Translations under genes and position numbers: made by a program
Notes under the pieces: generated by a model
Databases searched by the model: none
Seen by the model: the letters and a program-made list of their open reading frames with translations, nothing else
What the model was told of the DNA's origin: nothing
Shown: piece by piece, positions 1,160-58,229 of the stretch
Layout of the letters: each line of letters opens with the position of its first letter
Position numbering within the stretch: the first letter of the stretch is position 1
Assembly (NCBI RefSeq): GCF_004010195.1
Contig: NC_057710.1
Coordinates: 90,664,171 to 90,726,387, forward strand
Reading direction: 5' to 3'
Length of the DNA stretch: 62,217 nt
DNA from: Chiloscyllium plagiosum
Taxonomy: Eukaryota

Positions 1160-1392
1160 AATTGAGGTGCTGAATGCTACTTGACGTGAATGTGCAATTT
1201 TTTCATGTTCATCATCCTCATATACATCTTTCTTAGTCAATGTTGAGCCTTTAGAAGTCAAGCAATTTAATGAGCTATGGCTTCCCACTATTGGTAGGGA
1301 TCTGCAGCTGTTCGAATGGTGACAAATAGGTTCCATAGAAGTGTTACAGCAATCTTCAGAATTAAAATTCTGATAAAACTCCAGCCTTTTTG
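1160..1392 (-). CDS. ATP10D: ATP10D exon, variable N-domain insert (AKRLEFYQ...HSRQVAFSTSI); gene continues beyond position 1
   Basis: 233 nt, CCAATAG| acceptor, ATT|GTGAGT donor. Ends (AxRLExYQ, HSRQxAFSxxI) are conserved with ATP10D; the middle is divergent. Confidence 0.9.
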
Positions 1393-2869
1393 CTATTGGA
1401 CAGGTGAAAGACAAACATCAATATGAATATAAAGGATTGAAGTGGATTGATTTAAACATTCTAGTGTTCTCTTCTGACAAATAACACTGATCAAAAATCT
1501 CAGTACATTTCAAACATTCTTTACAAATATCCTGTTTAAACGTTACAGAAGACATGATGCACAAAATTGGTTTTAAACACATGTTCGGTGTATATGAGCA
1601 CAAAATGACTCTTTTCTGTTAAGATCAATGATGAGACCATTAAATTGTTATGATTTTGTTGGGGATCAATAATTTTCCTTATGTTTAAAGCAGAGAAAGT
1701 TTGAGATCTTATGTACTTAGTAAGGGAATAAAGCCACACAAGACTCCATTGTTTTGAACTATACTTTTCTGTGCAAAGTTAGAATATAAAACAATTAAAT
1801 CCGTACATCTTGCCGAAACTGACATGAGGCAAGAGTAAATTAACAGACAAACTGTGATTCATCAGCCCACAAAGCATATCAAACAGAATATGTCGTTCAG
1901 ACAGATTCCAGGAATTTCTCATCAACAACTATCAGCCTGACATTACAAGACATCAAAACTCATTATAACTTTGCCTCCTTCACAAGGAATGTCAGTTCTT
2001 AACTTTCAAAGATCTAGCTTTCATTCTTCCTTAAAACCTGCAGTCACGCATGGACTGCCTCAATGGCTGTTCAAATCCTGATAATTTAATCTCTTGCCCC
2101 AATACTGGGTTCCACTGGACTTCTATCTACACTTTAGTACCTATTCATGAGCACAATTCCAGATTTTGCCTAGTTTCACTATGTGGTAGTGCCCCTGGGT
2201 TTCTTGGAGATCTAGTATTTCTCAGTGGAGATCTGGGTGGAATGCATTTTGGAGGGTCAATGCAGACTTGACGGGACTAATGGCCTGCTTCCACACTGGA
2301 GGGATTCCAAGATTATTACTATTTCCTGGAACGGCTTCTCTTAACACATAAGTCAGCGTTCAAGTCAATAGTCCTAACTAGTACATATGAAGAGGAAGTA
2401 TTCACTGACAAACAAAATAAAACACCAAAATTTAACACAAGTTTCTCATTTTAGAAGGAAACTGGCATCAAAAAGTAATATTTTTATATAATTTAAGAAA
2501 ATCTATAAATTTGTTATCTAAATCCCACTCCATTAAATAGAATAGTACAAAATTATAAAGTAAACTAAGTTTAATTAAATGAACCTCATCTTTACTGGAA
2601 AAAGGAACAAGAATTACACTTCTAATAACACTTTTGATGACCTTCAGATGCTTCACAATCAATGAAAATGTTTTCAACATTGATCGCTGAGTGGGTTGAG
2701 GTTGAGAAATAAATATGCCAAATCATCTTGGTTGGTGTATCCATGAACTGACTGGATGACATCAGACAGTGAGGTAGTCCATGTGATTATTTAAAGTACT
2801 TTCAAAATCTAGCAAAATTGTAAATTTTGTAAATGAAACTTCTAAATTGTAAACAAAATAGAAACATAC

Positions 2870-3122
2870 CATTTTCTTCATGAAAATACTCAATCCCAGC
2901 AATGTTGCACCTGCTGAAAACCATTTTGTTCTCTGTAAGTGTTCCAGTTTTATCTGAAAATAGGTATTCAATCTGCCCCAGGTCTTCAGTGATGTTCAAC
3001 GCCCGACATTGAATGGTAGAATCTGTATTTTCATCATACAAGTCAATGTCACTCTGGAGGAGAAGTACTTGGCCCAACTTGACAATTTCAATGGACACGT
3101 ACAACGAAATTGGGATCAACAC
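2870..3122 (-). CDS. ATP10D: ATP10D exon, TM4 PISL and phosphorylation site ([18 protein letters not shown]...[16 protein letters not shown]...HEEN)
   Basis: 253 nt, TTTTTAAG| acceptor, G|GTATG donor. PISL and DKTGT motifs intact. Confidence 0.98.
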
Positions 3123-3789
3123 CTTAAAAATAAAATGCCAGGATGGCATAGGTTTAAGTTTGAATATTTGATGTTATTGATATCACTATTTTCAGAGCAC
3201 ATAAAATAGACTGTAAAAATCACACCTAGTATCTTTGTGAATATAATTCTTACAGAAAATCAAGCATCTTACATTTCAAAAATCTTCCTTTCAGAACCTC
3301 CATCTTTCAATTAAAAGCTGGTTAACCACCTCCTACACTGTTCAGCTAATGCAACTGTAGCAAACTCACTGAATGATTTTCCTAGTCTCTGTGAGGTATG
3401 CTTTCCTTTTCATACCACACAATTCGGCCCTTATTTTTGTACTGGGTCTCTGTAAAGCATCTGAAATTCAGTTCATTCTACACCCGGCTTTTCTATATAG
3501 CCTGTAATTTGTTTCACATTATCACATTTTCTTTTGAAGATCCCAAATGACCCTGTCTCCACCACACTTGCAGGTAATGTATTTCACTTCCTAGCCATTC
3601 TGTAAAAAAAGAATTTCTGTGTGTCACCATTGCTTCTTTTGCCAATTATCTTAAATCAATATCTTATAGTGCACAATGTCAATGGGGACAAATTACTCCC
3701 TGTGCATGATATGTCGATCTCTCATGATTTTGAACACCTTCACTAAATTCCCTCAACTTTAACTTCTCAAAAGGTAAATAATTCCTGAG

Positions 3790-4613: not shown

Positions 4614-7375
4614 TAGAGTCATGGAGATGGACAGCATGGAAACAGACCCTTTGGTCCAACGTGTCCATGCCAACCAGCCATCCTGACCTGATCTAGTCAC
4701 ATTTGCCAGCACTTGGCCCATATCCTTCTAAACACTTCCTATTCATATACAAATGCCTTTTAAATGTTGTAATTGTACCAGTCTCCACCACTTCCTCTGG
4801 CAGCTCATTCCATATATGCACCACCCTCTGTGTGAAAAAGATGCCCCTTAGGTCCCTTTTATATCTTTCCCCTCTCACCCTAAAGCTATGCACTCTAGTG
4901 CTGGACTCCCTCACCCCAGGGAAAATACCTTGTCTATTTATTCTATCCATGTCCCTCATGATTTTATAAACCTCTGTATGGTCACCCCTCAGCCTTCGAC
5001 ACTCCAGGGAAACCAGCACCAGCCTATTCAGCCACTCCCTAAAGATTAGATTACATTACAGTGTGGAAACAGGCCCTTCGGCCCAATAAGTCCACACTGA
5101 CCCGCCGAAGCGCAACCTACCTATACCCCTACATTTACCCCTTACCTAGCACTACGGGCAATTTGGCATGGCCAATTCACCTGACCTGCACATCTTTGGA
5201 CTGTGGGAGGAAACCGGAGCACCAGGAGGAAACCCACGCAGACACGGGGAGAACGTGCAAACTCCACACAGTCAGTCGCCTGAGGCGGGAATTGAACCCG
5301 GGTCTCCGGCGCTGTGAGGCAGCAGTGCTAACCACTGTGCCACCGTGCCGCCCATAAAGCTCAAATCCTCCAACCCTGGCAACATCCTTCAACCCTGGCA
5401 ACATCCTTGTAAATCTTATCTGAACCCTTTCAAGTTTCACAACATCCTTCTGATAGGAAGGAGACCAAATTGCACACAATATTCCTAAAGTGGCCGAACC
5501 AATGTCCTGTACAGCCGCAACATGACCTCCCAACTCCTATACTCAATACTCTGATGAATAAAGGAAAGCATACCAAATGCCTTTTTCACTATCCTATCTA
5601 CCTGTGACACTACTTTCAAGGAACTATGAACCTGCACTCCAAGGTCTCTTTGTTCAGCAACATTCCTGAGGACCTTGCCATTAAGTGTATAAATGCTGAT
5701 CTGATTTGCTTTTCCAAAATACAGCACCTCACATTTATCTAAATTAAACTCCATTTGCCACTCTTCTGCCCATTGGGCCATCTGATCAAGATCCTATTGT
5801 ACTTTGAGGTAATCTTCTTTGCTGTCCATCACACCTCCAATTTTGGTGTCAACTGCAAATTTACTAACAATACCTCCGATGTTCACTTCCAAATCATTTA
5901 TATAGATAACAAAAAGCAGTCGATCCAGCATGATCCTTGTGGCACACCACTGGTCACAGGCCTCCAGTCTGAAAAATAACCTTCCACCACCACCCTCTGT
6001 CTTCTACCATTGTGCCAGTTCTGTATCCAAATGGCTAGTTTCTCCTGTATTCCAGGAGATCTAACCTTGCTAACCAGTCTCCCACGGGGAACCTTGTTGC
6101 AAGCTTTATTGAAGTCTATATAGATCATATCCACTGCTGTGCCCTCATCCACCCTCTTTGTTGATTCTTCAAAAAACTCAATCAAGTTTGAGAGACATGA
6201 TTTCCCACGCACAAAGCCATGTTGACTTTCTCAAATCAGGGATAGTTTTGCCTTTGCAAATACAAGTAAATCCTATCCCTCAGAATTCCCTCCAACAACT
6301 TGCCCACCACCGACGTCAGGCTCACTGGTCTATCATTCCCTGGCTTGTCCTTACCACCTTTCTTAAACAGTGGCATCACGTTTGCCAACCTTCTGTCTTC
6401 TAGCACCTCACCTCTGACCATCGAGGATACTAATATCTCAACAAGAGGCCCACCAATCACTTCCCTAGCTTCCCACAGAGTTCTTTGGTACACCTGATCA
6501 GGGCCTGGGGATTTATCCACTTTTATGCGTTTCAAGATATCCAGCACTTCCTCCTCTGTAGTAAGGACATTTTCCAAGATGTCACCATCTATTTCCCGAC
6601 ATTCAATACCTTCCATGTCCTTCTCCACAGTAAACACTGATGCAAAATACTCGTATAACATCTTCCCCCATCTCCTGCGGCTCTACACATAGGCTGCCTT
6701 ATTCATCTTTGAGGGGCCCTATTCTCTACTTAGCTACCCTTTTGTCCTTAATGTATTTATAAAATCCCTTTGGATTGTCCTTAACCCTATTTGCCAAAGC
6801 TTTCATGACCCTTTTTGCCCTCCTGACTTCCCTCTTAAATGTACTCCTACTGCCTTTATACTCTTCTAAGGATTCACTCGATATCTCCTGTCTATACCTG
6901 ACATATGCTTCCTTCTTTTTCTTAACCAATACCTCAATTTCTCAAGTCATCCAGCATTCACTACATCTACCAGCCTTTCCTTTCACCCTAACTGGAATAC
7001 CCTGTATCTGGACTCTCGTTATCCCATTTTGAAGGCTTCCCATTTTCCAGCTGTCCCCAATCAGCTTTTGAAAGTTCTTGCCTAATACTGTCAAAATTAG
7101 CCTTCCTCCAATTTAGAACTTCAACTTTTAGATCTGGTCTATCCTTTTTAAAAACTAATAAAATTATGGTCACTGCCCCCAAAGTGCTTCCCCATTGACA
7201 CCTCAGTCACCTGCCCTGTCTGATTTCCCAAGAGTAGGTCAAGTTTTGCATCTTCCCTATTAGGTACATCCACATTACTAAATCAGAAAATTTTCTTGTA
7301 CGCACTTAAATTCCTCTCCAACTAAACCCTTAACACTACGGCAGTCCCAGTCAATGTGTGTAAAGTCAAAATGCA
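4614..7375 (-). mobile_element. 5'-truncated CR1/HER1-type LINE, broken ORF2 (RT), interrupted by a SINE
   Basis: ORF pieces KSPGPD...ANVMPLFKKG..RPVSLTSVVGKLLE, SCLSNL..DFNKA..SGVPQGS, WAEEWQMEFNxDKC, RDLGV, FFTQRVVHIWNELP. Has stops, frameshifts and a 19-bp tandem duplication (5371-5389/5390-5408). Confidence 0.95.
5045..5353 (-). mobile_element. Full-length young HE1-type SINE
   Basis: A box TGGCACAGTGG, B box GGTTCAATTCC, TAATG/TAATC tail. Possible TSD TAAAG at 5040-5044 and 5355-5359. Confidence 0.95.
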
Positions 7376-8486
7376 ACGAAATCAAAGTATTTGGGATTGT
7401 TCTCCTTGGATAGGAGACAGTTGAAAGGAGAGTTGATAGGTGATTTCAAACTTATGAATGAGCTGGGTACAGTAGATAGGGAGAAGCTGTTACAACTTGT
7501 AGAATAAAAAGAACATTGCCACATAGATATAAAGTAATGTGCAAATGAAGCAAGGATGGAGAAAAAAATGCACAGTGAGTAGTTAGTGTAGCGCTGCCTG
7601 GAAATGTAGTGGATGCAGATTCAATTGAGGGTTTCAACAGGGTAATTATTAATCACTTAGATAAAAATTGCATGCAGGGATATGGGGAAAAGGCAAGAAA
7701 TTTATACGAGGTAATAAAACAGGTAAAAGGAATAATGGGCAAAATGGTTTCCTCCTGGGTCGTAACAATTCTGTGGTTTCTCCAATTCATTCGTCATTCT
7801 GAAACTACTTTCATGAATCTTTTCTGTACTCTCTCAACATCCTTCCAAAATTATGCCATCCAGAATGGACATAACGTTCTAGAAAAGCCAAATCAATGTG
7901 TTATATAGGATTACAAAAGTTTCTTTTGTACTTTACGTCCCTACTAATAAATCCTAATCTTTGACTTTTTATTCACCATTTCCTCAACCTGCTCTTCCAG
8001 ATTCAATGGTTTGTGCATTTGCTCTTGCACCTGTTTAGACCTGCACTTTTTATTTTATAATGTATTTTTATTTTCTACTGAAATAAATCACTTCACATGC
8101 ATCTACATTCAAAATGACACCTCTAAAATGTTTGCCATTCCACCCTCTTGAAATTTCACACTAGCCATCTCAGTACATAATTTTTTCAAGTTTTCTGTCA
8201 TCTGCAAATTCTGAAACTATCCAATATATCCAAGTCTAGGTCTCATAATGCACAGAGAAAAACAACATCAATGCCAGAAAACCCAACTCTATATCTTCTT
8301 CCAGTCCAAAAAAATACTCACAATGACTCGACGCTTATTACTTGGTCAACTTCATATCCACGCCTCCCCTGTCTTTATAGCATAACGCTATAAATTAAAA
8401 TTTTTGTGCTTATGAAGTGCCCAAACTTCCAGTAGGGTCAGATTTAGACCTGCAACATCATACATTATTTGTACAGCCCCCCTTAC

Positions 8487-8614
8487 CTGAAGTAAAATAA
8501 TCATGGTCCAGAACATGTAGAATGCTGCCAAAGCTGAAGGGGTATGTTCTCCATCTGGCTGAGGGACATTAAAAATAGGAAATTGCGAATAGCTACTTAA
8601 CCAAATTCCATGAC
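8487..8614 (-). CDS. ATP10D: ATP10D exon, TM3-4 loop and TM4 start (GHGIWLSSYSQFPIFNVPQPDGEHTPSALAAFYMFWTMIILLQ)
   Basis: 128 nt, not in the ORF track. GATTAG| acceptor, CAG|GTAAGG donor. FYMFWTMIILLQ matches ATP10D. Confidence 0.96.
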
Positions 8615-9303
8615 CTAATCATAAAATAAAAGTAATTAAGGTTAGACTTTTAAGATATTAAATTGCATTATTCACAATATTTCTTTTGAAAACCGCACAC
8701 AATGAAAAGGTTTTTGATGACATCATTGCAATCTTCTGATCAATAAGATGTAGGAATTGCGCATCTCGTAATAGCCCGGAATATCCTGGAACAGGACAGA
8801 AAAGTCTACCAAGATCAAAGGTAAATCAATTACATATATGATTTCATAGGTAACAGGAAAAGCAGCCCAATCTGATGAGCAGTAATAGAAATTTGAATTA
8901 AGTAACCATGATGAAAAACTTTCTCAAAGATTAGTTAACAGGCTTATGCAATTCACATTATTTATGACACAATTCACAAAAGGTATTGCATTCTAGGCTT
9001 GTAGACAATATCTAGTTATCAAAGAAAGGAGGACACTTGCAGGATGAGAAAGGTAGCTTTGTCAAACTTCTGTAGGTAAGTGTTGAGAACTACAAAATGG
9101 CAAATACACATGCTAAATGACAAAGACGTATATTGTTAAATAAGGTTTAGCAGAAAAAACAAATTCAAGTATGCTAACTGACCATACACTGAAATGTACA
9201 ATGTTATGTGATAGCAACTGCCACTGTAGAATGTAATCGTGTGTGAATAGAATTTAGGTCAATGGTAATTAGAAGGGTACCACATTTAAACCAGTAAAAT
9301 TAA

Positions 9304-10710: not shown

Positions 10711-11350
10711 TTAAAAAAATTAAGTTGTTAACTCAAAAAACAGAAACTTAGTACAAAAGGTCTTGAGATGCATTCTTGCTTAATCCTGAGTCAGGTTTCA
10801 AAACTATAACAGAACCATTAGCAAGACTGTCAAATTCTACTTACACAACATTACCACCCACATTCACTCAGTGAGTTGCTCATTCTGAGAAGTGACATAA
10901 ACATGCTGGGCTAAATGACCCCCTCCAGCACTATGACAATTTTGTTAATTAGTCTTAACTCACTCCCATGATTGTTTTGATGTAAGTTACAACTTATATA
11001 TAATCTCTCAACTTGACTGGCTCCCCATCTGAATAGCACATCAATTGAAAATGAATTTTCTCTCTTTTCAAATACAAAGGGAATCTCTTAGCCCACGTCT
11101 AAAATATATGTTTAGCAATACTTACATTTTAGTTTAAGAAAAACATGGATTTGTCTAAGGGACAACTAGCACTGTTCAAACCACGGCATAAACTAATTAA
11201 ATAGTTACAGTGAATTAGCACTTCACACTTCAAAAAAGATATTTTTTCCATACTGATAAGATAATTATTGTGCAATTTCTTTCAAAGGGAGGTATGCTTG
11301 TCCTAATGCAGTCACACTAGACATCTTTCTTCCACATTTTGGCCACTTAC

Positions 11351-11482
11351 CAAATGCTCCAATTAGACTCATCATGAATAGTAGGACCACACACCAAAGA
11401 ACATCTGTATTAAGCTTCCTTTCAAGTTTGCTGCGCTTGTAGCGAGGGCCACTGTTATTCATCATTGCTTTGGTTTCATGTC
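11351..11482 (-). CDS. ATP10D: ATP10D exon, TM3 ([44 protein letters not shown])
   Basis: 132 nt, CCAG| acceptor, G|GTAAGT donor, phase 1-1. GHETK and [10 protein letters not shown] motifs. Confidence 0.97.
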
Positions 11483-11710
11483 CTGGTTTAGAAATAAATA
11501 ATGAATGATCACCGGCAAATCCAATGTTACTGTTAAATTAAACTGGGACTGTGTATTCTCCTTAATTAATAGAACTAAACAATATAAAACAGCAATAATA
11601 ATGAGAAACTGGGCTCCTTTAACCAACTAGACTATTCAGTTTCCAAAGCTGCACTAGCAGCCATATGTTTACATTGTCACCAGCTCATAAAACCTTTCAC
11701 ACTATGGTTA

Positions 11711-15297: not shown

Positions 15298-15719
15298 ACG
15301 TGGGGTATGTGGTGAGGAACTATGTGAGTGGGGAGGGGAGGAGAGACCTATGACACGAGTGGTGGTGATAAACATTGGGCAGACACCTGTGAGTGACAGG
15401 AGGAGAGAGAGAAGCTGTTTCACTCATTTTTCCTTTCCACTGGATATTATCAGGACAGGATTCAACCTTAATGAGATCAGTTAGGCCATGACCACCATCA
15501 AAACAAAAATTCTGAGATTTAACCATGCAGTTATTAGAACTTGGTTGGAGCACTACAGCAGCCTCCGAGCTGGTGACCCCAAAATGTTGGCTGGTGACTG
15601 TGACCCACGATTTGAACTCCTGTGCACAGTACCTCAAAGTGAAATTCTTGTTTTTCAAGAAAATTTGTCACAAAGCTATGGATTTATCATATTATTTTAT
15701 ATCAAGTTCTAACACTAAC

Positions 15720-15826
15720 CTGCATAAACTACAATTCCAACAACAGCCTCAGTATTCCTAATGGTACAACCTCGAAGCAAAAGATTGTTCTTACTGAGAC
15801 CAACCCGCTCTTTATTTTGATGTACC
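15720..15826 (-). CDS. ATP10D: ATP10D exon ([35 protein letters not shown])
   Basis: 107 nt, not in the ORF track. GCAG| acceptor, G|GTTAGT donor. Contains the [12 protein letters not shown]4-ATPase motif. Confidence 0.96.
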
Positions 15827-16917
15827 CTGCAAATTTTCATAAATGACAATGGTTAATAAGGAAAAAGCAACAGGCCTAGTTATATTTTTTCTAAAAATTT
15901 ATACAGATAGATTTCAGAGAAACAGCTTGAGAAAGTGTATATATACAAATTTGTACCATTAAACAAGACTGCTATCTTGTATAAAGAGACTGAATTAATT
16001 ACTCATTGCTTGCCTCTTCAATAATACTGCCTAGAAATTTAGAAAATTTTAGAAATTAGATTAATGTGACACAACAATTAGAGTAAATTCTGAACTTAAA
16101 ATCAACTTTTTGAAGTTAGACATCCTGATCTTCCCCAATGAATGTATCGCTCATAAATATTTTCCATGAGTGAAACCTTTTCTAAACAATTTATTAAGGA
16201 TAAACATTGTGGTGTTGGAGGAAAAATAAGAACAGTTATGAAGTCAGGACAAATACTTGCATTTTATGAAGCCATTAGAAAGCAAACATTCCAAGAAACT
16301 TCACAAGTGTGAGGAGAGTTTTGGAGGAGCGTGGGGAAATGGCAGTGAAATGACAAAAATAGATTTTAAGTCAGCTTTTGAAAGGTTAGAGGATTCTAGC
16401 AAGGCAGAGAATTTCATAATGCCAGCTTTTAACACCAGTGACAGACCCTAACATGGAGAACAAAGATTTGAGAACAGGTAGAGCAGTGAAGCAGCAAAAC
16501 AGTGAAGAAATATTATTGGCAAGCATAAAGATTTTAAAGTCAAAATATTAAGAAATAGGAAACCAATAAAGATGTGGAAAGAGAATATTGTCAGTGAAAA
16601 CATTGCCAAAACATCGATTGCAGCATTATCACATGAATTGTTACTTGTACAGGATGCAGTTCAGGATGCCACAATTAATATTTGAAAAGCTGAGATTCAA
16701 AGTGACATGGGCATGAATGTCAAATTTAGTGTATTGAAAGTGAAGAAAGAGGGTAAATGGTAATAATTTATGGGTGACAGTCGGTGACGTTAAGTTTGAA
16801 GTCCAGTCAAGTAAGACATCAAAATTATGCAACATTCTATTTTGATCCAATTCTGAAAGTCTTCATTTTCAAATTTTCAAATCTTTCTTAGTTAGTTGGG
16901 AAACACACAGCACTTAC

Positions 16918-17003
16918 ATATAACCTTTAAACTTGTTTAGATCATTGTTCGGACTTTCACATTCTATTCTGCTGGTGAACTGCTCAGGATCAGCTTCAGA
17001 CCC
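16918..17003 (-). CDS. ATP10D: ATP10D exon (GSEADPEQFTSRIECESPNNDLNKFKGY)
   Basis: 86 nt, not in the ORF track, translated by hand. TTTTTATACAG| acceptor, AT|GTAAGT donor, phase 0-2. Confidence 0.95.
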
Positions 17004-21767: not shown

Positions 21768-21972
21768 CAGCTTTGTAAATCCCTTAACAACCTGTCTCTG
21801 CTTCAGGTTGGTTTCTCCATCCAAATTGGATGTTTCAATGTGGCAGATCCCATCAACATCAGTAGAATACAGCAACACCATATCTGCAGGGATGATTTCG
21901 TTGCAAGATAATCGGATGAAATCCCCAACGTGAACTTCCTTCCACCATTTCGCAAGATACATTTTTTTGTGT
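21768..21972 (-). CDS. ATP10D: ATP10D exon, actuator domain ([68 protein letters not shown])
   Basis: 205 nt, CATTCTAG| acceptor, CTG|GTGAGA donor. Contains the P4-ATPase DGET motif. Accepts both upstream phase-2 donors (AA+A=Lys, AG+A=Arg). Confidence 0.97.
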
Positions 21973-38612: not shown

Positions 38613-40134
38613 GAGGTATATAAAATATTAAAGACGATTGACAAAATATATGTAGAGTGAATGTTTCCCATTGAGAGGCAACCGAAATCGAGTTTTAGAC
38701 TATGGGGTAATAGATTTAAAACAGAGGTGAGGAGGAATTATTTCGCTCAATGATCACAAATCTGTGGAATTCACTACAGTATGGTGGACACTGAGACACT
38801 GAATAAATTTGACGAAATAGACAGAATTTTAATTAGCAATAGGTTAAAAGTTTATAGGGAGTGGGCAGGAAAGTGGAGTTGAGGCTGAGATGAGATCAGC
38901 CAAGATCATATTAAGGGGCTGAGCACACTCAAGAATCTGAATTACCTACTCCCGCTTAAACTTCTTATGCTTGGTCCAACTGCTTAATGTCTCTCTCTCT
39001 CTTCATGATAGTGGTATATGTTTCTACAATTTGTATTTTTTTTTATTATATTTCTTCCACAGATTTTGCTACGCTGCTGCTTTAGAAACATACCTATTAG
39101 AAGGAAGGAATTAGATACCCAATTAGGAACTGAAGATATCTCTACAGTCAAATCTTTAAACTCCTGAATGTAATGTGGTTGCCCAACTCTAGCTTCCCTT
39201 GAATAGATTATAATCCATTTCAGGCATAATTAAAAGTCAATCACATTGCTGTGGGTCTGACGTCACATGTAGGCCACACCAGGTAAGGATGCTAACACTC
39301 CCTCTCTAAAAGGATATTAGTATAGAATTCCTACAGTGCAGATAGGGGCAATTCTGCCCATTGAGTTTGCATCACCCTCAAGACCACCACTCCCCAAACC
39401 TATCCCTGTAACCCCGCATTTACCATAGTTGAACCACCTAGCCTGCACAACTCTGGATAGCATAGGGCAATTCAGTATAGCCAAACCACCTAACCTGCAC
39501 ATCTTTGAACTGTGGGAGGAAACAGGAGCACCCAGAGGAAACCCTCGCCGATACCAAAGGCTAGAATCGAACCTGAGTCTCTAATGCCGTGAGGCAACCA
39601 CTGAGCGACTGTGCCATCAGACGAATTTGTTTCTGACAACCAATAATTGTTATGTGCTTCTCATTAATTCTAGACTTCTACTGAATTCAACTTTCACCTG
39701 CTATGTTAGGATTCAAACCCACAAACTTAGAACTTTATCCAGGGTCTCTGGATTACAGTGCAGTGATACTAGGTCCCTATTTAACTTATTTTAACATAAT
39801 TTTGAGATTTTATCAGTAGACAAATGCTGAGGTTATAGGTATATTGCAAAACAATTTACACCTTTTATTCTTCTACATATATAGAAAATAATTTACCTGT
39901 AAATGTCTTCTCTAGTTTTGAAACAGCACCAGCTTGCTTAAGGAGTGATTAAAATTTAACACAAGTTGATTTTTTTATATTTGTGATTCAGCAACTTCTA
40001 AAGTCATTTATTTCCTGATGAATAAAATTCCAGTACCCTCTGATCATCTGCCTAGACATTGACCACTAAAACCTCTTGCTATTTGCACCCTGAAGTTCAA
40101 AGAATTATCACAGCACTTGAAAATTATTTTTTAC

Positions 40135-40484
40135 CTGTTGTAGACAAGACATAAATTCTGATTAATTCTTTGATCTGAGATGAAACGCCTGTGATCCTCC
40201 CAGACATCTTTGATAGCATTTGGGAGAAGGACAATTATAACAGGGATAAGACTGATCACTGGCTGAAAAGCATTGACGACAGGCACAAAGTTGAGCACGG
40301 CAATGAAGATAAAATATACGTTGGCCAGTCGATGCAGCTGTTCAAAGAGATTCTTGGGAATAAAGGACCACACCGTATACTTTGTTGTCTTGATCCCATT
40401 TCCCAAATATTTTTGGTTTATGGTTTTTGTGCTCTCTCCAGTCAATAAATTAGAAGTCACAATCCTCTTAGAGCTCTCCTTCAT
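40135..40484 (-). CDS. Alternative ATP10A-like N-terminal coding exon (N-tail + TM1-TM2 in one exon) inside the ATP10D intron
   Basis: Open frame of 116 codons + 2 nt: [14 protein letters not shown]...[88 protein letters not shown]. It ends AG|GTAAAA at the same position and phase (2) as the canonical exon at 52861. Expression cannot be shown from sequence. Confidence 0.85.
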
Positions 40485-41169
40485 ATTTCATTCTTCATCT
40501 GCATTCATACAATCTTCTTCAGAATCATATTTTTCCATCTAAATATCCTCAGCCATTTAAATCTTGCTGCCCTAGTCTCCGAATGGTCAAACCCATGGCT
40601 TGGAAAACTTTGTTTGGTGAACGACAATCCTCAGAGTTACCAAGCTTGTGCTTCACTTGCTAACCATACACTTGCATTTGGCTCAACTTGCTTCCTGCAC
40701 CACCCACCTGTAAAACACCTGGTTGTACACATGCTATTTCTTTAGGAATTGTAATCACTCATGATGCTTAATACCTTAATTTCTTTGTTACTACAAACAT
40801 TGCTGCAATAGAGACAGGGCATACAGTAAACTGATATTTCATTTCACCAGTTGGAACATTCCAACAACTCCTCAGAGACAATTAACACAATAATTTGTGG
40901 ATATAGGTACACTGCATGAGCTAATTGGCCAAATCTTGCTGGAAAAATGACAGTGTGTTAATGTTGCATCACATTCTTAATGTGAAAGTTTGCCCTCAAG
41001 TTCTTCGGGGGTGGCTGCTCACAGGTAAAGGAACATCTGGCAAATAGAAGGCTTTCAAAAGCAAGATAATAACAGTTCCCGCCGGTGAGAAGGGCAAGAC
41101 TGTCAGGAGTAGGAAACACTGGGTGACTATTCTGGTCAAGAAAAGGAGGAAGCATATGTCATGCATAGC

Positions 41170-44224: not shown

Positions 44225-47200
44225 GTTCAGCACCATTTGTGACTCCTCAGATACTGCAAAGCAGTCCATGTTCAAATGCAACAAAATCTGGACAATCTCA
44301 GGCTTGGAATGACAAGTGACAAGTAATATTCATGCAACAAAAATGCCAGACAATTCCCATCTCCAATAAGAGATGATTTAATCATTTGACATTCAATGGT
44401 ATTATCTTCACTGAATTCCCCCTTGATTAACATCCTGGGGGTTACCAGGAAAACTAAACTGGACTAACCACATAAATAGTGGCGACAAGAGCAGGTCAAA
44501 AGTTAGGAATACTCTGGTGAGTAACTTATCTCCTAATTCTCAAAGCCTATCCACCATCTACAAAGCACAAGTCATGAGTATTTGGAAGGATACATAAATA
44601 GGAATAGGCCCAAAAATGCCACCCAGAGTGCCACCCGTGAACAGCTGTACTTCGGGCACGAATGTCTAAGAAAACAGGTACTACGTAAAAGTCTTAAATA
44701 CAAGCCTCCCCTTAACACCCCGCTAGCTAAAGCAAAAGCAGCAAAATGGCCACAGAATGCTTAGAGAAATGCCCACAACAGACTCCGTAAACACAACCGG
44801 GAAATTCTGCACCAAAAATAGTTACTCACGCATGCAACAGACCATGAACGGACAGACACAGAACAACAAGCCATTGATATTAGACAGAGACAAACACAGA
44901 AACTAGACAAACTTACACAAAGTAACAACACTGACAACACAAAGCATGGTTAAAAAAACTTACCTGAGCGACCCTTAACAGACACTGAAAAAGCCGTCTT
45001 AGTAAGAGGATTAAATTACAACTACCAGATGTGGACAAGAAAGATTTCTTAGCAGCATTGGAAACAACACTAAAAGACAACCAACTCACAGAAGAAACCC
45101 AGCAAGCCATCAGACAGATAGTCACACCAACATTAAGCAGAAAAAATGAAGGAAACACACTCAATACACAAGAAAGGAAAGTCCTAGAAAGACTAAAAAA
45201 AAAGATAAAAACATTGTCATCCTACCTGCAGACAAAGGACACTTGACAGTCATTCTAAATCGAAGACACTACATTGAAAAAGTGAACGCATTACTTACAC
45301 AGACCAACAAGTGGTGATAGACTCAACCCCACAACTAGAGAACCAAATCACAGCCTTACTCAAAAAACTTCAGAAATCTGGAGAAATAGATAAGACCGAC
45401 TTCCAAAAAAATGAAACCAGACAGATCCAATACACCATGGTTCTACAGGTTACCGAAAATTCACAAACCAGGAGCCCCCCTCCAACCCACAGTCTCGTTA
45501 CCTGGAACACCAACTTACAGATTAGCCAAGGAGTTACACCAAAGACTAAAACACTTAGTAGAAGACTCACGCCACTCCATCCACTCCACCCAAGAATTCC
45601 TGAAGACCAAAGACACTAAGATAGATAAAGCCCTGTTTACATCAATCAACATTAACCTGGTCAAGGAAACACTGACTACACTATTAGAAGACCCAAAGAC
45701 AATTACACCAAATACCACTAACTTCATCAGCAAGGACAGTATCGTTAAGCTACTGGACCTGTGCCTTACCACACATTTCACCTTCAACAACAAAACCTAC
45801 AGACAAACCAACGGAACACCCATGGGATCTCCGATATCAGGGTTCTTAGCAGAGGCAATAATGCAGAGACTCGAACAACCATCCAACCCAAGCTTTGGGT
45901 CCGCTACGTGGATGACACCTTTGTCATCACAAAACAAAACAAATTAGAGGAAACCTTCAAGACTATCAATAATACCTTTATTGGCATAAAATTTACTAAA
46001 GAGGAGGAAAACAACAACAAACTGCCAATCCTAGATGTCACAGTAGAGCGAACAGCCAATGGGGAACTTCAAACCAGTGTCTGCAGGAAAACAACACATA
46101 TGGATTAAATATCGAACTACAGAAGCAATCATCCCAACAACCACAAACAAAGCTACATCAGAACATTATTTCAATGAGCCAACACACACTGCAGCACAGA
46201 GGAGCTATGCAGAGCAGAGGAAAAGCACCTATACAGTGTATTAAACAAGAATGGGTACCCAATAAGCATAGTCCGTCGAATTCTCAGCAACAAACCCAAA
46301 CAAGCAGACAAAACACGTCCAGAAACCCTAGCCACTGTCCCCTACATCAAAGACATCTCGGAAATGACTGCCAGACTACTCAGATCTCTTGGCATCATAG
46401 TAGCCCACAAACCCACCAACATACTAAAACAGCAACCTACGAACTTGAAAGACCCTATACAGACAACAAGCAATCTAATGTCATTTACAAAATACTTTGC
46501 AAGAACTGTAACAAACACTACATTGGACAAACAGGCAGAAAACTAGCCACAACACGATATGACCCTCTCCCACTAGTATCCTTACATACAGATAAGAAAG
46601 GACACCACTTCGACTGGGACAACACATCCATCCTAGGAAAAGCCAAACAGAGAGACACACGAGAATTCCTAGAAGCATGGCATTCCAACTGGAACTCTAT
46701 CAACAAACGCATCGAGTTAGATCCCTCTACCACCCCTGGAGAAAAAGAACAGGAAATGACATCACCAACCCAAAGAAACTCAAACATATAAATAGAAAGC
46801 AGAAATCACGTACACTGCTTCGCCTGAGGTCCACTGAAGATGTTACCTAGTATGGTGATGAAACATCTGGAAATGAACCTCCCAGCTCAGCAAGCAAACT
46901 TACATCCATGAATAGGAAAGATTTGGAGGGACATGGGCCTGGAACAGGCAGGCGAGACTAGTTTAGTTTGGGATTATGTTCGGCATGGCCTGGTTGGACT
47001 GAAGGGTCTGTTTCGTGCTGTATGACTCTATTGCTCTATGATGGAGCAGTCCCGTTTGCCTGGATTGGTGCAGCTCCGATAACACTCAAGAAGCTTGACA
47101 ACATCCAAAACAAAGCAGCCCATTTGTTTAACCACACACCCACAAGCATCTGCTCCTTTCACCAACAATGCTCAATAGCAGCAGTGTGTACAATATACAA

Positions 47201-47510: not shown

Positions 47511-49320
47511 AATGGCTAGCATCCAAGTGTTTTAAAAGGAGCTAACAGCAGAGATAATGGAGGCATTGATTGAAATATTCCCAAACTCAGAATTCTGGGA
47601 GGGTTCCAGCAAATTGGAAAACCAGTAAAGTGATACCTCTGTTCAACAAGGAAGGAGACAAAAAGCAGGAAACTACAGGCAAGTATACCTTATCTGTTGT
47701 TGGGAAAATGCTAGAATCAGTTACTAAGGAAGAAAAAGCAGGATATTCGTAAAGCTAAATGCAATTAGAGAGAGTTAAATTTTTGTTTTTGCAAGGAAAA
47801 TCATGTTTGTCAAATTTGCTAGAGTTCTTTGAGGATAATAACAAGCAGAATTAATAAAGACAAACGTCAACGTAGTGTAGTTGGATTTCTCTAAGGTGCT
47901 ACAGAAAGGTTAATGCAGAAGATGGGTGTAACAGAGGGTTAATGTCTTGGCATGGATTGTAGATTGGTTAACACATAGAAGACAGAATCAGGGTTAATAA
48001 GTCTTTTACAGTTTGGAAAAATACAACTAGAGGAGTGCCACAAGGATCAATGCAAAGGCCTTAATTTTTACTAGTTATATTAATGACTTAGAAAAGGACG
48101 GGGTGTAATGTATCAAAGTTTGCTGATAATACAAAATAGGTGGGAGGGCATATTGTGATGAGAGCCTAAGGAATTGGCAAGAGTATACAGATAGGTTAAT
48201 TGAGTAGACAAAAACACACAAATATACACTCTCTCTCACTCAACCCCCCAACCCAGACAGACAGACACACACACAAAGACCCACATGCACACATATACAT
48301 ATATGTTTGTGGGGTGAATTTTGACTTGCAGAGTTACATTGTACTTTGCTCAAAAACTGCATGAATTCATGTAAACTGTTATCTCACTTTTTAGTTTACG
48401 ATCAGTCTAAACATTATAGCAAAGACAAAGAACATAGGGGGCTAAGACCTTCAATGCATTGTCTAGCTAACACCAATTGTTACGGTTAACCTGAGAATTC
48501 AACTTTTAAAAAAAAGTTGTGTGATTTACATATGAAAGAAATGGAACTATCATAGCATTCTAACAGATGAAAGCCTCAACAAACAATTAAGGTATTATTC
48601 AATGTATAATTTCAGTTACATCACACTGTAAACTTTTTGCTATAAATTCTGTGTCTGACAATTGTGTCCTCCACAACCACCTGATGAAGGAGTGGCGCTC
48701 CAAAAGCTACTGTGCTTCCAATAAAACCTGTTTGACTATAACCTGGTGTTGTGTGATTTTTAACTTTGTGCACCCCAGTCCAACACCAGCATCTCCAAGT
48801 CTTGAGCCAGATTGTGTGCTTGCCATGATGTGGAGGTGCCAGTGTTGAATTCTGGGTTCCGAGGAAGGGTCACTTGACCCAAAATGTTAACTCTGATTTT
48901 TCTCCACAGATGCTGCCAGACCTGCTGAGGTTTTACAGCAATTTCTTTTTTTGTTCATGGCTAAATAGGTCTTTGTTCATTAGAATTTAGAAAAATGAGG
49001 AGTGACCTTATTGAAACATACAAGATTCTGAGGGGACTTGACAGGGTAGAATAGGAATTTTGATTTAGGGGTTACAATTACAGAATAAGGAGGCACTAAT
49101 TTAGAAAGGAGATACAAAGGAATTTCTTCTGCAAGAGGGTAAAGAATTAATGCAATTCTGTACCCCAGACAGTTATGGAGATAGATCACTGAAAGTATAT
49201 AAAGAGGGGGGGTAAATGGTTTCTTTGAATTGTGATCTATGATGAGCTTTCATGAAAAAGGATTAAGCACCAGGGCAGATCAGCCATGATCTTTTTGAAT
49301 GGTGAGGCAGGCTTGAGGGG
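47511..49320 (+). mobile_element. Old CR1 RT region interrupted by PLE pieces (48215-48955)
   Basis: SGRVPANWK..VIPLFNK, SVVGKMLE, GVPQGS, SKFADNTK remnants, then a CR1 C-terminus from ~48955. Confidence 0.75.
48215..48830 (+). mobile_element. PLE 3' UTR fragment with CA-rich tract and degenerate hammerhead (48677-48712)
   Basis: CCAC-CTGATGA-A-GGAGT-GGC-GCTCC-AAAA-GCTA. Same family as 25490-25605. Confidence 0.7.
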
Positions 49321-49324
49321 CCTT

Positions 49325-50316
49325 CTTCCACGATCGCAACTTCCCTTCCCACATGGTTGGCGATACCCTCCAGCACATCTCTTTCATTTCACTTCACCGC
49401 CCTTGAACACCACCCTTCCCAACGCAACAAAGACAGAACCTCCTCAGTTCTCACCTTCCATCCCACCAACCTCCACATATATCGCATCATCCTCTGCCAC
49501 TTCCATCACCTCCAAACGGACCCCACCACGAGATATATTTCCCTCCCCACCCCTATCAGTGTTCCGAAAAGACCATTCCCTCTGCAACTCCCACATCAGG
49601 TCCACACCCCCCCACCAGCCCATACCTGGCACCTTTCCCTGCCACCTCAGGAAGTGCAAAATCTGCGCCCACACCACTCCTCTCACCTCCATCCAAGGCC
49701 CCAAGGGATCCTTCCACATCCATTAGAAATTCACCTGCAAGTCTCCCAATGTCATCTATTCCATCCGTTGCACCGTGATCTCCTCTACATCGGGGAGATA
49801 GGACGCCTTCATGCAGATCATTTCAGAGAACATCTCTGGGACACCTGCACCCACCAACTCCACCGCCCCGTGGCTGAACACTTCAACTCCCCCTACCACT
49901 CTGTCAAGGACATGCAGACCCTGTGCCTCCTCCACCGCCAAACTTTTACCATCAGACGCCTGGAGGAGGAACGCCTCATATTCCGCCTTGGGACCCTGCA
50001 ACCACACGGGATAAATGTGGATTCCAACAGCTTCCTCATTTCCTCTCCCCCCACATTATCCCAGTCACAAGCCTCCAATTTGGCACTGCCCTCCGGACGC
50101 ATCCATCACTGTCCCCTCTGACCTATCATCTCCCCCCAACCCCATCCCCCTCCCATTTATCTCTCAGTCCCAACCCTCAAGCCTCATTCCTGATGAAGGG
50201 CTTATGCCCGAAATGTCGATTCTCCTGCTCCTCAGATGCTGCCTGACTGGCTGTGCTTTTCCAGCACCACACTCTCGACTCTGATCTCCAGCATCTGCAG
50301 TCCTCACTTTCTCCTC
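49325..50316 (+). mobile_element. PLE 3' part (Neptune-like: Cys/His linker + GIY-YIG) ending in a hammerhead tail
   Basis: PC...CKICAH, FTCKSPNVIYSIRC, LYIGEIGR..FREHL, PVAEHFN. CTGATGAAGGGCTTATGCCCGAAATGTC at 50190-50217. Confidence 0.9.
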
Positions 50317-52860: not shown

Positions 52861-53055
52861 TTGTCATATACTTTAGTTGTTCGATTGTTTATTTGTTTGT
52901 CAAACTTGTAGCGACGGTAATCTTCAATTCCATCTTTAATTGCAATAATTGCAAGAACCACTACTAATGGCAACATGGTTATCTCCTTCTGAAATGCTTC
53001 CACTAAGGGGACCCAATTGAGAACAACAATGAATAGGAAGTAAAGATTTGCAATC
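52861..53055 (-). CDS. ATP10D: ATP10D coding exon for TM1-TM2 (IANLYFLFIVVLNWVPLVEAFQKEITMLPLVVVLAIIAIKDGIEDYRRYKFDKQINNRTTKVYD)
   Basis: 195 nt, TTCAG| acceptor, AA|GTAAGT donor, phase 2-2. LNWVPLVEAFQKEITMLPL is typical of ATP10D. Confidence 0.97.
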
Positions 53056-55945: not shown

Positions 55946-56223
55946 CTGTGAAACTGTTCAAATAAATTCCTTGGAATAAAGTTCAGCAAGGTATATTTGG
56001 TTGTTTGAATCTTATTAGTCATATAATTCTTGAAAACCTTTTCATATTCTTCAGTAAATCCACCAAGACAAGGAATTACTAATCGATGTTTGCATCCAGT
56101 TTTCTGTGGTTGGGAAGTTTTGAACCACCCTGGGAATAGTGATACAGCGTATCTATTACTGCTTCCATGTGTCAAAAGCAATCTCTGCCATCTGTAGCGT
56201 GCCCATTGGATGGGGCGTGCCAT
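55946..56223 (-). CDS. ATP10D: ATP10D first coding exon (canonical N-terminus MARPIQWARYRWQRLL...TTKYTLLNFIPRNLFEQFHR); exon probably extends to 56280 as 5'UTR
   Basis: Matches the ATP10D N-terminal signature (QWARYxWxRL, HRxVxP, EYEK, TTKYTLLNFxPRNLFEQFHR). Donor AG|GTATG at 55946/55945, phase 2. Acceptor TTTTTTTTCTAG| ends at 56281. Confidence 0.95.
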
Positions 56224-56464: not shown

Positions 56465-56844
56465 CTCCTGCTCCTTTGATGCTGCCTGATCTGCTGCGCT
56501 TTTCCAGCAACACATTTTTAAGCTCTGATCTCCAGCATCTGCAGTCCTCACTTTCTCCTATTTTAAAAATTGAAACAAACTTAATTATTAAGTATGCCTA
56601 ATGATTGAAGCTGATATTAAAAATAAATCATCACAGTTGGCACAGGATGTTACCATATTATATCCTACATTTATGTCAAACAACACAGTATATTCAGATG
56701 CTACTCCTTCTTAAAAAAGGCTTCAATGTGTTTCGTTGTTAAACTGAATTACTAAGGGCATGGCACCCCCTAGTGGATTTGCAAATTATTTCAACACCCG
56801 AGCTCAGCAAACACAAAATTCTTAACCGTTTATCATTTACTCAC

Positions 56845-57224
56845 AGAATCATAGAGATGTACAGCATGGAAACGCAGCCTTCGGTCCAACATGTCCACGC
56901 CGACCAGATATCCCAACCCAATCTAGTCCCACCTGCCAGCACCCGGCCCGTAGTCCTCCAAAACCTTCCTATTCATATACCCATCCAAATGCCTCTTAAA
57001 TGTTGCAATTATACCAGCCTCCACCACATCCTCTGACAGTTCATTCCATACACGTACCACCCTCTGCGTGAAAAAGTTGCCCCTTAGGTCTCTTTTATAT
57101 CTTTCCCCTCTCACCCTATACCTATGCCCTTTAGTTCTGGACTCCCCTACCCCAGGGAAAAGACTTTGTCTATTTACCCTATCCATGCCCCTCATAATTT
57201 TGTAAACCTCTATAAGGTCACCCC
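56845..57224 (-). mobile_element. Young CR1 LINE 3' end
   Basis: Uninterrupted GDLIEVYKIMRGMDRV...FFTQRVVRVWNEL...FKRHLDGYM. Confidence 0.93.
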
Positions 57225-57856
57225 AAAATGTAGAGAAACACACCAGGTCTCTCAATCTAAAGAGGGTGATCTGTCTCTTCTCAATCTATCTCCATATCTT
57301 TTGACGTTTGCCTCTTTTTTAATTGCCTAGCACTCTTTAAATTGAATTTATGCTATTCTCCTCAACAATTCTCTCCAGGTAAATATTGTATACACCCTGG
57401 ATAAATGAGTTTGTCCTTAATTTACTATTGGAGTTATTTGCAGCTATTTGATACTTATTACCCCTTTTTTAAAAATTATTTCCAAAACAACTTGCTCAAA
57501 GATGTTATGACACTCGTCTGGAACAGCTGGGACTTGAACCCTGGCCTCCTGCACCACAAGAGCTCTCTAAAACAACCTGTTCAGATGTGTTATTACACAC
57601 CCCAGCTTATGAACAGATAGGATTTGAAGCCAGGTATTCAGGCACAGAAATAATGGCATTACCAGTACGCCACAAGGCACTAGCTGTTTTGGAAAGCAGG
57701 AAGAAAAATTTATTAGCATTTTAAACAAACATACAATTTAAAAGGTAAGGCAGAAACACAAACAGAAGATAACAAAAGGAGATTGTGTATTAATCCTCTG
57801 GAGATACAGAAGTCATGCAACATCAGCATAGTTCATTTTAGACATTCCAGTGTTCC

Positions 57857-58052
57857 GGTGATGCATGTATGGCATGAGCTGCCAGAGGAAGTGGTGAAGG
57901 CTGGTACAATAGCAAGATTTAAAAGGCATATGGATGGGTACATGAATAGGAAGAGTTTAGAAGGATATGGGCCAAATTCTGGCAAACGGGACTGGATTAT
58001 TTTAGGCTATCTAGTCAGCAAGGACAATTTGGACCGAAGGGTCTGTTTCATG
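57857..58052 (+). mobile_element. CR1 LINE 3' end
   Basis: VWHELPEEVVKAGTIARFKRHMDGYM. Confidence 0.88.
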
Positions 58053-58229
58053 CTCATGAATCATAAAATGTTATTAATTTGGTAATTAATTTGGCAATCA
58101 GATTTTTTTTATTTCAAGGGCGATGGAGTATAATAATAGGCCTGTTATGTTAAAACTGTTCAGGGTATTGGGGAGATTGCAGTTGGAATACTTGGTGAAG
58201 TTTGGTCACTTTTCTGAGGAAGGGATATA

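What the first reader, a model, noticed from the sequence alone, without database searches (positions are those of the whole stretch)
40135..40484. Second, ATP10A-type N-terminus/TM1-TM2 cassette hidden in the ATP10D intron: one flippase body, two swappable entry-gate halves
Seen: an uninterrupted 350-nt minus-strand ORF duplicates, in one exon, what the canonical exons at 55946-56223 and 52861-53055 encode. It ends at the homologous residue with a phase-2 GT donor, so it splices in frame to 21972 (YN-R-HKKM versus YD-K-HKKM). No downstream exons are duplicated, so this is not a whole-gene tandem copy. It carries the signature I recall for ATP10A exon 1 (RxVxSNLL, SFxPKNLFEQ, ANVYFxFIAxLNFVPxVNAFQP, DxWED, INxxxCLV) and lacks the intron after FHR. 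The canonical exons carry the D signature (LNWVPLVEAFQKEITMLP). Established: TM1-TM2 with TM4/6 form the P4-ATPase lipid pathway; human ATP10A flips phosphatidylcholine and glucosylceramide, whereas ATP10D is reported to flip glucosylceramide only. Inference: alternative 5' exon choice could switch lipid specificity or localisation. The ancestral ATP10 gene may have had both cassettes, later partitioned among paralogues. I recall a similar alternative N-terminus annotated for human ATP10B, which would support ancestry but reduce novelty; this is unverified.
Basis: partly seen in the sequence, partly recalled or inferred. Interest (0 to 1): 0.9.

Follow-up and report, generated by a model that had tools for sequence, protein, structure and literature searches.

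The report
Ancient second start for lipid flippase
A shark gene for the lipid pump ATP10D keeps an intact, conserved second front end inside an intron, the same two-front-end layout already catalogued for human ATP10B, and it likely lets one gene make two pump versions whose lipid-selecting gate differs.

Summary
40484-40135 (-) is 116 codons plus 2 nt, ends in a GT donor and is in phase with exon 3 at 21972. It duplicates the N-tail and TM1-TM2 of canonical exons 56223-55946 and 53055-52861 of shark ATP10D. It looks selected: 101 of 116 residues match a catshark model that starts with it. It is ancient. Trees reject a copy from shark ATP10A (AU p=0.015) and a recent in-gene duplication (p=0.0002). 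The same genome's ATP10A locus has both cassettes in the same order, and its ATP10B has lost one. Both cassette types occur on ATP10A, B and D bodies. The human ATP10B event is already catalogued as an N-terminal tandem-exon substitution, which lowers novelty; I found nothing in print on ATP10D/ATP10A retention. The swap changes the entry-gate site (NW to NF) and the exit-gate site (Ile to Asn). A lipid switch is untested, and published data argue against a simple PC on/off switch. The splice junction was not seen in RNA.

The parts
40135..40484 (-). Alternative (A-type) first coding exon: short N-tail, PhoLip_ATPase_N region, TM1 with NF at the GA/QQ entry-gate site (N65,F66), lumenal loop VNAFQP, TM2 with unusual P88-N89 (N89 aligns to Dnf1 T254); phase-2 GT donor at 40134-40133
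40485..40800 (-). Putative promoter/5' UTR of the alternative exon (inferred): no acceptor-like polypyrimidine-AG and no TATA-like box found in the 516 nt upstream; start site unmapped
   Evidence: regex scan; low-depth contigs of uncertain RNA/DNA status cover parts of it
55946..56223 (-). Canonical (D-type) coding exon 1 of ATP10D, N-tail to FHR, phase-2 donor
   Evidence: matches the start of C. plagiosum RefSeq XP_043547552, P0428
52861..53055 (-). Canonical (D-type) coding exon 2: TM1 with NW, loop VEAFQKEITM, TM2 with Ile at the Dnf1 T254 site; 195 nt, the same length as human ATP10B exon 2
21768..21972 (-). Shared exon 3 (start of the A domain); common phase-2 acceptor for both cassettes
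16917..17003 (-). Shared body exon (approximate tblastn limits)
15718..15825 (-). Shared body exon (approximate)
11349..11483 (-). Shared body exon (approximate)
8484..8645 (-). Shared body exon (approximate)
2859..3131 (-). Shared body exon with the TM4 QVLIPISL motif and DKTGT phosphorylation site (approximate)
1160..1393 (-). Shared body exon; the gene continues beyond the window's left end

Best explanation
This intact, conserved exon is a second copy of the ATP10D front end (N-tail plus TM1-TM2) that likely serves as an alternative first exon from its own promoter, which would give a second ATP10D isoform whose lipid-gate residues differ and whose glucosylceramide handling is predicted to be tuned rather than switched. 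Shown: intact frame and matching splice phase; conservation in a catshark; both cassette types on ATP10A, B and D bodies; the same exon order in shark ATP10D, shark ATP10A and human ATP10B. Inferred: a tandem duplication of the 5' coding region in a chordate or stem-vertebrate ATP10, before the A/B/D split; choice of cassette by promoter (the exon begins with its own ATG and shows no acceptor); an isoform of about 1446 aa; later losses in different lineages (human annotation lists the event only for ATP10B; this shark's ATP10B lacks the A-type exon). Least certain: the functional effect. I put about 0.85 on a working alternative first exon, about 0.9 on pre-A/B/D origin, and about 0.45 on a measurable change in lipid preference.
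For: Frame and phase. S. torazame model GCB66025 starts with the orthologous exon joined to exon 3, 101 of 116 identical; core 80 of 88 versus 79 of 88 for the canonical core against S. canicula. Body windows in the same species pair run 52-87 of 88, with 5 of 14 at 80 or more. Neutral-decay simulation: 0 of 2000 copies stay intact at 0.2 substitutions/site, 25 of 2000 at 0.1. The contig C6 gene has D1, D2, A-type exon and an ATP10A-like exon 3 in that order. Body tree: Heptranchias VA with a D-type cassette in the ATP10A clade (100/98); an unnamed Logan protein of 1441 aa on a 6856-nt contig, with an A-type cassette, in the ATP10D clade (97/96); Salminus and Garra RefSeq VD X1/X2 pairs carry D- and A-type starts. 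Cassette tree: the D-type clade (100/98) holds A, B and D genes. AU tests. Human ATP10B event 24, N-terminal, 'Chordata' (PMC8373072 supplement). ATP10D N110,W111 and ATP10A N98,F99 are the GA-motif site, and NW substitutions abolish GlcCer transport (bioRxiv 10.1101/373712). The Dnf1 alignment maps N65/F66 to G230/A231 and N89 to T254.
Against: No junction seen: on 39900-40800 there were no joints or loose ends, and one contig runs through the donor into the intron (may be DNA). 0 of 7 Chiloscyllium/Hemiscyllium and 0 of 2 S. canicula ATP10D database proteins use the exon. The S. torazame model is an unnamed prediction whose RNA support I could not check. Only one other shark orthologue turned up in two searches (120 listed of 643; 120 of 149). 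TM2 has Pro88 (2 of 522 cassettes) and Asn89 (3 of 522), which could impair the helix. No dN/dS was computed, and the neutral distance was not measured. A-type cassettes are not one clade in the best tree: 4 unnamed non-vertebrate-like rows sit at an open fork. Against a lipid switch: D-cassette ATP10B flips PC and GlcCer, and the GA site does not set PC/PE choice.
Confidence: 0.75

Rival explanations
1. A working alternative first exon whose only role is regulatory: a second promoter widens or changes where ATP10D is expressed, and both isoforms flip the same lipid at the same membrane.
For: Swapping cytosolic N-tails left ATP10A and ATP10D at the plasma membrane with largely unchanged activity (PMC7530900). 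The main GlcCer determinant is the TM4 Gln in the shared body. D-cassette ATP10B flips PC too.
Against: Those chimeras swapped only the tail, not TM1-TM2. The cassette types differ consistently at gate sites: in 390 scored cassettes from the named searches, 248 of 259 NF/xP cassettes have Thr and 116 of 127 NW/xK-R cassettes have Ile at the T254 site (near-copies, not independent). NW substitutions abolish ATP10D GlcCer transport.
Confidence: 0.35
2. A silent or decaying relic of the ancestral second cassette, or one giving only an inactive product, in this lineage.
For: No junction seen; not used in 9 of 9 shark RefSeq-type ATP10D proteins examined apart from the S. torazame model; Pro-Asn in TM2; long branch to the shark pair, 0.42. 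This shark's ATP10B has lost its A-type exon, so loss does happen.
Against: Intact ATG, frame and donor; 91% core identity to the catshark, including the same Pro-Asn; neutral simulation.
Confidence: 0.1
3. A recent copy moved in from shark ATP10A, a recent duplication inside ATP10D, or a misassembly.
For: Single-exon form and A-type motifs resemble ATP10A exon 1.
Against: AU p=0.0146 against grouping with shark ATP10A exon 1. AU p=0.00016 against grouping with the shark canonical cassette (group named after the tree was seen). GC3 0.48 versus 0.86 for the ATP10A exon. An orthologue sits on an ATP10D body in another shark assembly. Non-vertebrate-type cassettes also appear to lack the FHR intron (16 of 50 read on into unrelated sequence after the cassette end), so retroposition is not needed.
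Confidence: 0.03

Closest known systems
Human ATP10B alternative N-terminus (ENST00000642502 vs ENST00000327245; event 24 in Martinez Gomez et al. 2021, PMC8373072; ATP10B cluster named in Hatje et al. 2017, PMC5740500)
   Same: Two D-type exons (exon 2 of 195 nt) followed by one A-type exon, all joining the same exon 3; NW versus NF; 57 of 88 core residues shared with the window exon.
   Different: Here it is ATP10D (and, in the same genome, ATP10A). That table lists no ATP10A or ATP10D event. In ATP10B the swap removes the ETTPLL endosome signal; no such known signal is at stake in ATP10D. The shark exon has P88-N89 in TM2.
Tandem exon duplication-derived N-terminal substitutions by alternative promoter, with subfunctionalisation after gene duplication (PGM1/PGM5, CACNA1F/S, FYN family; PMC9741552)
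   Same: Homologous alternative 5' coding exons, ancient, kept in some paralogues and lost in others.
   Different: The swapped unit is two of the membrane helices that form a transporter's substrate path; two exons are replaced by one; three paralogues show different retention in different lineages.
ATP10A exon 1 (class 5 P4-ATPase, PC >> GlcCer)
   Same: NF entry-gate motif, F-Q-P loop, no intron after FHR, same 3' boundary.
   Different: The window exon is a paralogous copy inherited with ATP10D, not derived from ATP10A; shorter tail; Asn instead of Thr at the T254 site.
ATP11C C-terminal splice isoforms
   Same: Alternative ends of a P4-ATPase that change its behaviour.
   Different: Those swap cytosolic tails and alter trafficking; this swaps transmembrane helices.

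Membership tests
P4-ATPase ATP10D gene (host) | Catalytic body groups with ATP10D | tested here: met
   Body tree clade 97/96; canonical exons match C. plagiosum VD-like XP_043547552
P4-ATPase ATP10D gene (host) | TM4 Pro-4 Gln and DKTGT motif | tested here: met
   QVLIPISL and DKTGT in the window-matching protein P0429/P0428 and ORF 2802-3173; motif role
A-type ATP10 N-terminal cassette | NF at the GA/QQ site, F-Q-P loop, single exon ending phase 2 before exon 3 | tested here: met
A-type ATP10 N-terminal cassette | Thr at the Dnf1 T254 site in TM2 | tested here: not met
   Asn89 after Pro88; 248 of 259 NF/xP cassettes have Thr, 3 have Asn. A common feature rather than a strict definer; the tree places it among A-type cassettes
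Tandem exon duplication-derived N-terminal substitution | Homologous exons at equivalent positions in one gene, same downstream splice site and phase | tested here: met
   49 of 88 core identity to the canonical cassette; both phase 2 into 21972
Tandem exon duplication-derived N-terminal substitution | Similarity higher between species than between the two copies within a species | tested here: met
   80 of 88 to the catshark orthologue versus 49 of 88 to the canonical copy; trees
Tandem exon duplication-derived N-terminal substitution | Both forms transcribed and spliced, one cassette per mRNA | tested here: inconclusive
   No junction in this shark; database isoform pairs in Salminus and Garra, and a full-length Logan-contig protein with the A-type start on an ATP10D body
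Tandem exon duplication-derived N-terminal substitution | Own promoter / transcription start | not testable with these tools
   Only a negative scan for an upstream acceptor; needs CAGE or 5' RACE
Substrate-switching isoform pair | The two isoforms differ in lipid transported | not testable with these tools
   Needs a flippase assay; literature is mixed
Transposed ATP10A fragment | Nests with shark ATP10A exon 1 | tested here: not met
   AU p=0.0146; separate clades

The most novel reading that the evidence does not exclude
The ancestral vertebrate ATP10 was one flippase with two promoter-selected TM1-TM2 gates (NW/Ile and NF/Thr), and gate choice sets how strongly it prefers glucosylceramide over phosphatidylcholine. 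Mammalian ATP10A and ATP10D would be frozen opposite states, sharks would still switch gates in both genes, and the little-studied A-type human ATP10B isoform would be a non-lysosomal flippase with a different lipid preference, which matters for Parkinson's-linked ATP10B work.
Probability: 0.3. Interest if true: 0.8.

Novelty: new member of a known kind. Interest (0 to 1): 0.5.

Why it matters
What makes ATP10A prefer PC and ATP10D prefer GlcCer is unresolved (PMC11775268). Natural isoform pairs with one body and two TM1-TM2 cassettes (shark and teleost ATP10D, shark ATP10A, human ATP10B) are ready-made swap experiments. The history also recasts the dissimilar N-termini of mammalian ATP10A and ATP10D as likely reciprocal retention of two ancestral cassettes. 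It draws attention to a human ATP10B isoform that lacks the ETTPLL endosome signal, whereas the functional papers I saw used the 1461-aa form. The kind of event is known and the ATP10B case is catalogued, so this is a useful extension rather than a new mechanism.

Tried and rejected
RNA: no RNA holder listed for 39900-40800. No lay covered both the exon and exon 3, so the junction could only have shown as a loose end; none appeared in 4 runs. The raw single-cell run laid 0 reads (about 2% of the run read), which is no test. Low-depth contigs from organism B cover the exon interior and upstream flank but are not on record as RNA, so I give them no weight. A single A>C difference at 40303 in one contig at depth under 5 was ignored. 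A-type exon in this shark's ATP10B (contig C14): not found in the 26,447-nt, N-free intron with 9 protein queries (tblastn, E up to 10) and 2 DNA queries. Second cassette in amphioxus or oyster: the 4 Branchiostoma and 4 Saccostrea cluster members share one cassette; their genomes were not searched. Identity of the unnamed clade sister to vertebrates (P0182, P0194, P0196, P0202): no names; the Atlas gave only 'Eukaryota, commonest Chordata', so I do not call them tunicates. Monophyly of all ATP10D alternative cassettes is neither rejected nor shown (p-AU 0.48). No CpG island at the alternative exon. Structure prediction was not run: it cannot address lipid choice. Earlier-findings look-ups returned nothing. 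The first cross-tab returned 0 rows from a regex error and was redone; two exon joins were off by one and were corrected.

Full report
Observation. Window 40484-40135 (-) is 350 nt: 116 codons from ATG without a stop, plus AG, then GT at 40134-40133. An in-frame stop lies just upstream of the ATG. Exon 3 begins at 21972 after AG, so the split codon reads Arg (YN-R-HKKM). The canonical exons 56223-55946 and 53055-52861 end in the same phase and give YD-K-HKKM. The canonical exons and downstream exons match the C. plagiosum RefSeq VD-like protein XP_043547552, and the body groups with ATP10D (97/96). The exon matches Pfam PhoLip_ATPase_N at 85.3 bits and shares 49 of 88 core residues with the canonical cassette. 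Downstream exons occur once in the window.

Is it under selection? The S. torazame model GCB66025 begins with the orthologous exon joined to exon 3: 101 of 116 residues identical, 80 of 88 in the core and 21 of 28 in the tail. The canonical cassette shows the same pattern against S. canicula (79 of 88 core, 53 of 69 tail). Fourteen 88-residue windows of the body in the Chiloscyllium-S. torazame pair range from 52 to 87, with 5 of 14 at 80 or more. In a neutral-decay simulation (assumed 0.1 indels per substitution), 256, 25 and 0 of 2000 copies stayed intact at 0.05, 0.1 and 0.2 substitutions per site. The least conserved body windows suggest a distance of 0.2 or more, but that is my inference: the neutral distance and dN/dS were not measured, and low windows may reflect model errors.

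Is it expressed? Not shown in this shark. Four runs laid on 39900-40800 gave no joints or loose ends; one contig runs through the donor into the intron and may be DNA. Of 7 Chiloscyllium/Hemiscyllium ATP10D database proteins, 6 start with the canonical cassette, 1 starts further downstream and 0 use this exon; both S. canicula proteins are canonical. Support comes from other species. RefSeq lists VD isoforms X1 (D-type) and X2 (A-type) in Salminus and Garra; their RNA support was not checked. An unnamed Logan protein (P0010, 1441 aa on a 6856-nt contig, so most likely a spliced transcript) has an A-type start on an ATP10D body and is the nearest cassette to the shark pair (96/97). Electrophorus and Prochilodus models contain both cassettes in series.

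How old is it? The assembly holds three ATP10-type exon-3 matches. On contig C6 an ATP10A-like exon 3 is preceded, on the same strand, by D-type exon 1, D-type exon 2 and an A-type exon, in the window's order. The C6 D-type exons equal the start of a short RefSeq 'VD-like' model in C. plagiosum. Their orthologue in Heptranchias is joined to an ATP10A body (100/98), and fragments exist in S. torazame and Callorhinchus. On C14, ATP10B (ETTPLL present) has D1 and D2 but no A-type exon in a 26,447-nt intron without N. Gar-family ATP10B proteins carry either cassette and bird models carry both.

Trees. The cassette tree has 61 rows and 114 columns. Before building it I dropped 6 non-vertebrate-type rows, and 3 more gave no core. 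All 20 D-type cassettes form one clade (100/98) with ATP10A, B and D subgroups. The 26 A-type cassettes fall into ATP10A, ATP10B and two ATP10D groups at an open fork shared with 4 unnamed rows, so they are not strictly one clade. AU tests reject grouping the window exon with shark ATP10A exon 1 (p=0.0146) and with the shark canonical cassette (p=0.00016; group named after seeing the tree), and do not reject one clade of ATP10D alternative cassettes (p=0.48). The body tree has 31 rows; 3 were skipped for motif failure and the oyster row was mis-started. Lamprey proteins carry the A type. Amphioxus and oyster members show one cassette. Of 50 non-vertebrate-type cassettes among the 150 listed representatives, 16 read on into unrelated sequence after the cassette end, 7 stop there and 27 continue into exon-3-like sequence. 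This suggests the single-exon form is old and the FHR intron was gained in the D copy, though split forms would score lower and be under-sampled.

What the swap changes. An ungapped alignment to yeast Dnf1 maps N65/F66 to G230/A231 and N89/D93 to T254/D258. These Dnf1 residues are the entry- and exit-gate selectivity sites (PMC4937031, passages). Roland et al. (bioRxiv 10.1101/373712, passages) equate ATP10D N110,W111 and ATP10A N98,F99 with the GA motif; NW substitutions abolished GlcCer transport, and ATP10A flips GlcCer at half the ATP10D rate. In 390 scored cassettes from the named searches, 248 of 259 NF/xP cassettes have Thr and 116 of 127 NW/xK-R cassettes have Ile at the T254 site (many near-copies). 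The shark exon has Pro88-Asn89 there: Pro in 2 and Asn in 3 of 522 cassettes, both shared with S. torazame.

Against a simple switch. The same preprint says the GA site does not set PC/PE selection, that ATP10A N98/F99 mutants only moderately affect PC, and that the TM4 Gln in the shared body is the main GlcCer determinant. The 1461-aa ATP10B has the NW cassette yet flips PC and GlcCer (PMC7244618, passages). Tail swaps left ATP10A and ATP10D at the plasma membrane with activity largely unchanged, whereas the ATP10B tail with ETTPLL directs endosomal targeting and an A-tail on ATP10B was ER-retained (PMC7530900, passages). I therefore favour promoter-selected isoforms with tuned GlcCer handling over a PC on/off switch, and a localisation effect mainly for ATP10B. 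These steps are inferred.

What is known. The supplementary table of PMC8373072 (rows seen; main-text passages) lists ATP10B event 24, N-terminal, last common ancestor 'Chordata', with the D1, D2 (195 nt) and A-type exons; ATP10A and ATP10D do not occur in that file. PMC5740500 names an ATP10B cluster (one passage). PMC9741552 describes retention and subfunctionalisation of such exons in paralogues and does not mention ATP10 in its main text or in the 15,271 characters of supplement held. For PMC4417111 I saw the search listing and a partial supplement search; its file 1 could not be searched and may bear on novelty. PMC11775268 and bioRxiv 2023.06.01.543059 were seen as passages; bioRxiv supplements were not seen. 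Seven literature searches showed no paper on dual cassettes in ATP10D or ATP10A; the library lacks most subscription journals.

Verdict. A real and probably functional alternative first exon, part of an ancient two-cassette design of vertebrate ATP10 genes that is already catalogued for human ATP10B. New here, as far as I could search: retention in shark ATP10D and ATP10A, loss in this shark's ATP10B, the link to gate residues, and the shark TM2 Pro-Asn. New member of a known kind; interest 0.5.

Noticed in passing
G000:C6:100401540-100412559 (L003, L014): The D-type exons upstream of bamboo-shark ATP10A are annotated in RefSeq as a separate 167-208 aa 'VD-like' gene with short unrelated tails, while the Heptranchias VA model joins the orthologous exons to the ATP10A body; possibly a split annotation or a cassette being decoupled.
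   Followed up: partly
G000:C14:24779557-24806020 (L023-L026): This shark's ATP10B has no detectable A-type exon, although gar, amphibian, bird and mammal ATP10B proteins carry one: a lineage-specific loss opposite to the human pattern.
   Followed up: yes
window 40218-40223 (-), codons 88-89 of the alternative exon: Pro-Asn replaces the usual Val-Thr just before AIKD in TM2 (Dnf1 T254 exit-gate site); shared with S. torazame and nearly absent from the other 520 cassettes scored.
   Followed up: partly
P0244/P0420 and P0421/P0422 (Saccostrea ATP10): Oyster ATP10 isoforms differ by an equal-length homologous swap of about 67 residues near positions 1024-1090, in the C-terminal membrane region; looks like a separate mutually exclusive exon pair in the same family.
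   Followed up: no
P0153, P0158, P0166 and similar short unnamed ORFs: Single-exon A-type cassettes with a VEAFQP loop group with otophysan ATP10D alternative exons (98/97); probably unannotated ATP10D alternative exons in other fishes.
   Followed up: partly
P0182, P0194, P0196, P0202: Unnamed proteins whose bodies (P0194, P0196) are sister to vertebrate ATP10 (93/89) and whose cassettes are NF with a proline loop; they may date the A-type cassette before vertebrates.
   Followed up: partly
L002 (G000:C6 A-type exon of ATP10A): GC3 of 0.86 against 0.48 for the window exon and 0.34-0.36 for the canonical exons, as expected if it is the GC-rich main first exon of ATP10A.
   Followed up: no
window 4693-6682, 45278-46791, 49256-50246, 56743-58085: Introns hold fragmentary ORFs that look like LINE reverse-transcriptase and SINE-type repeats (recalled resemblance, not tested).
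   Followed up: no
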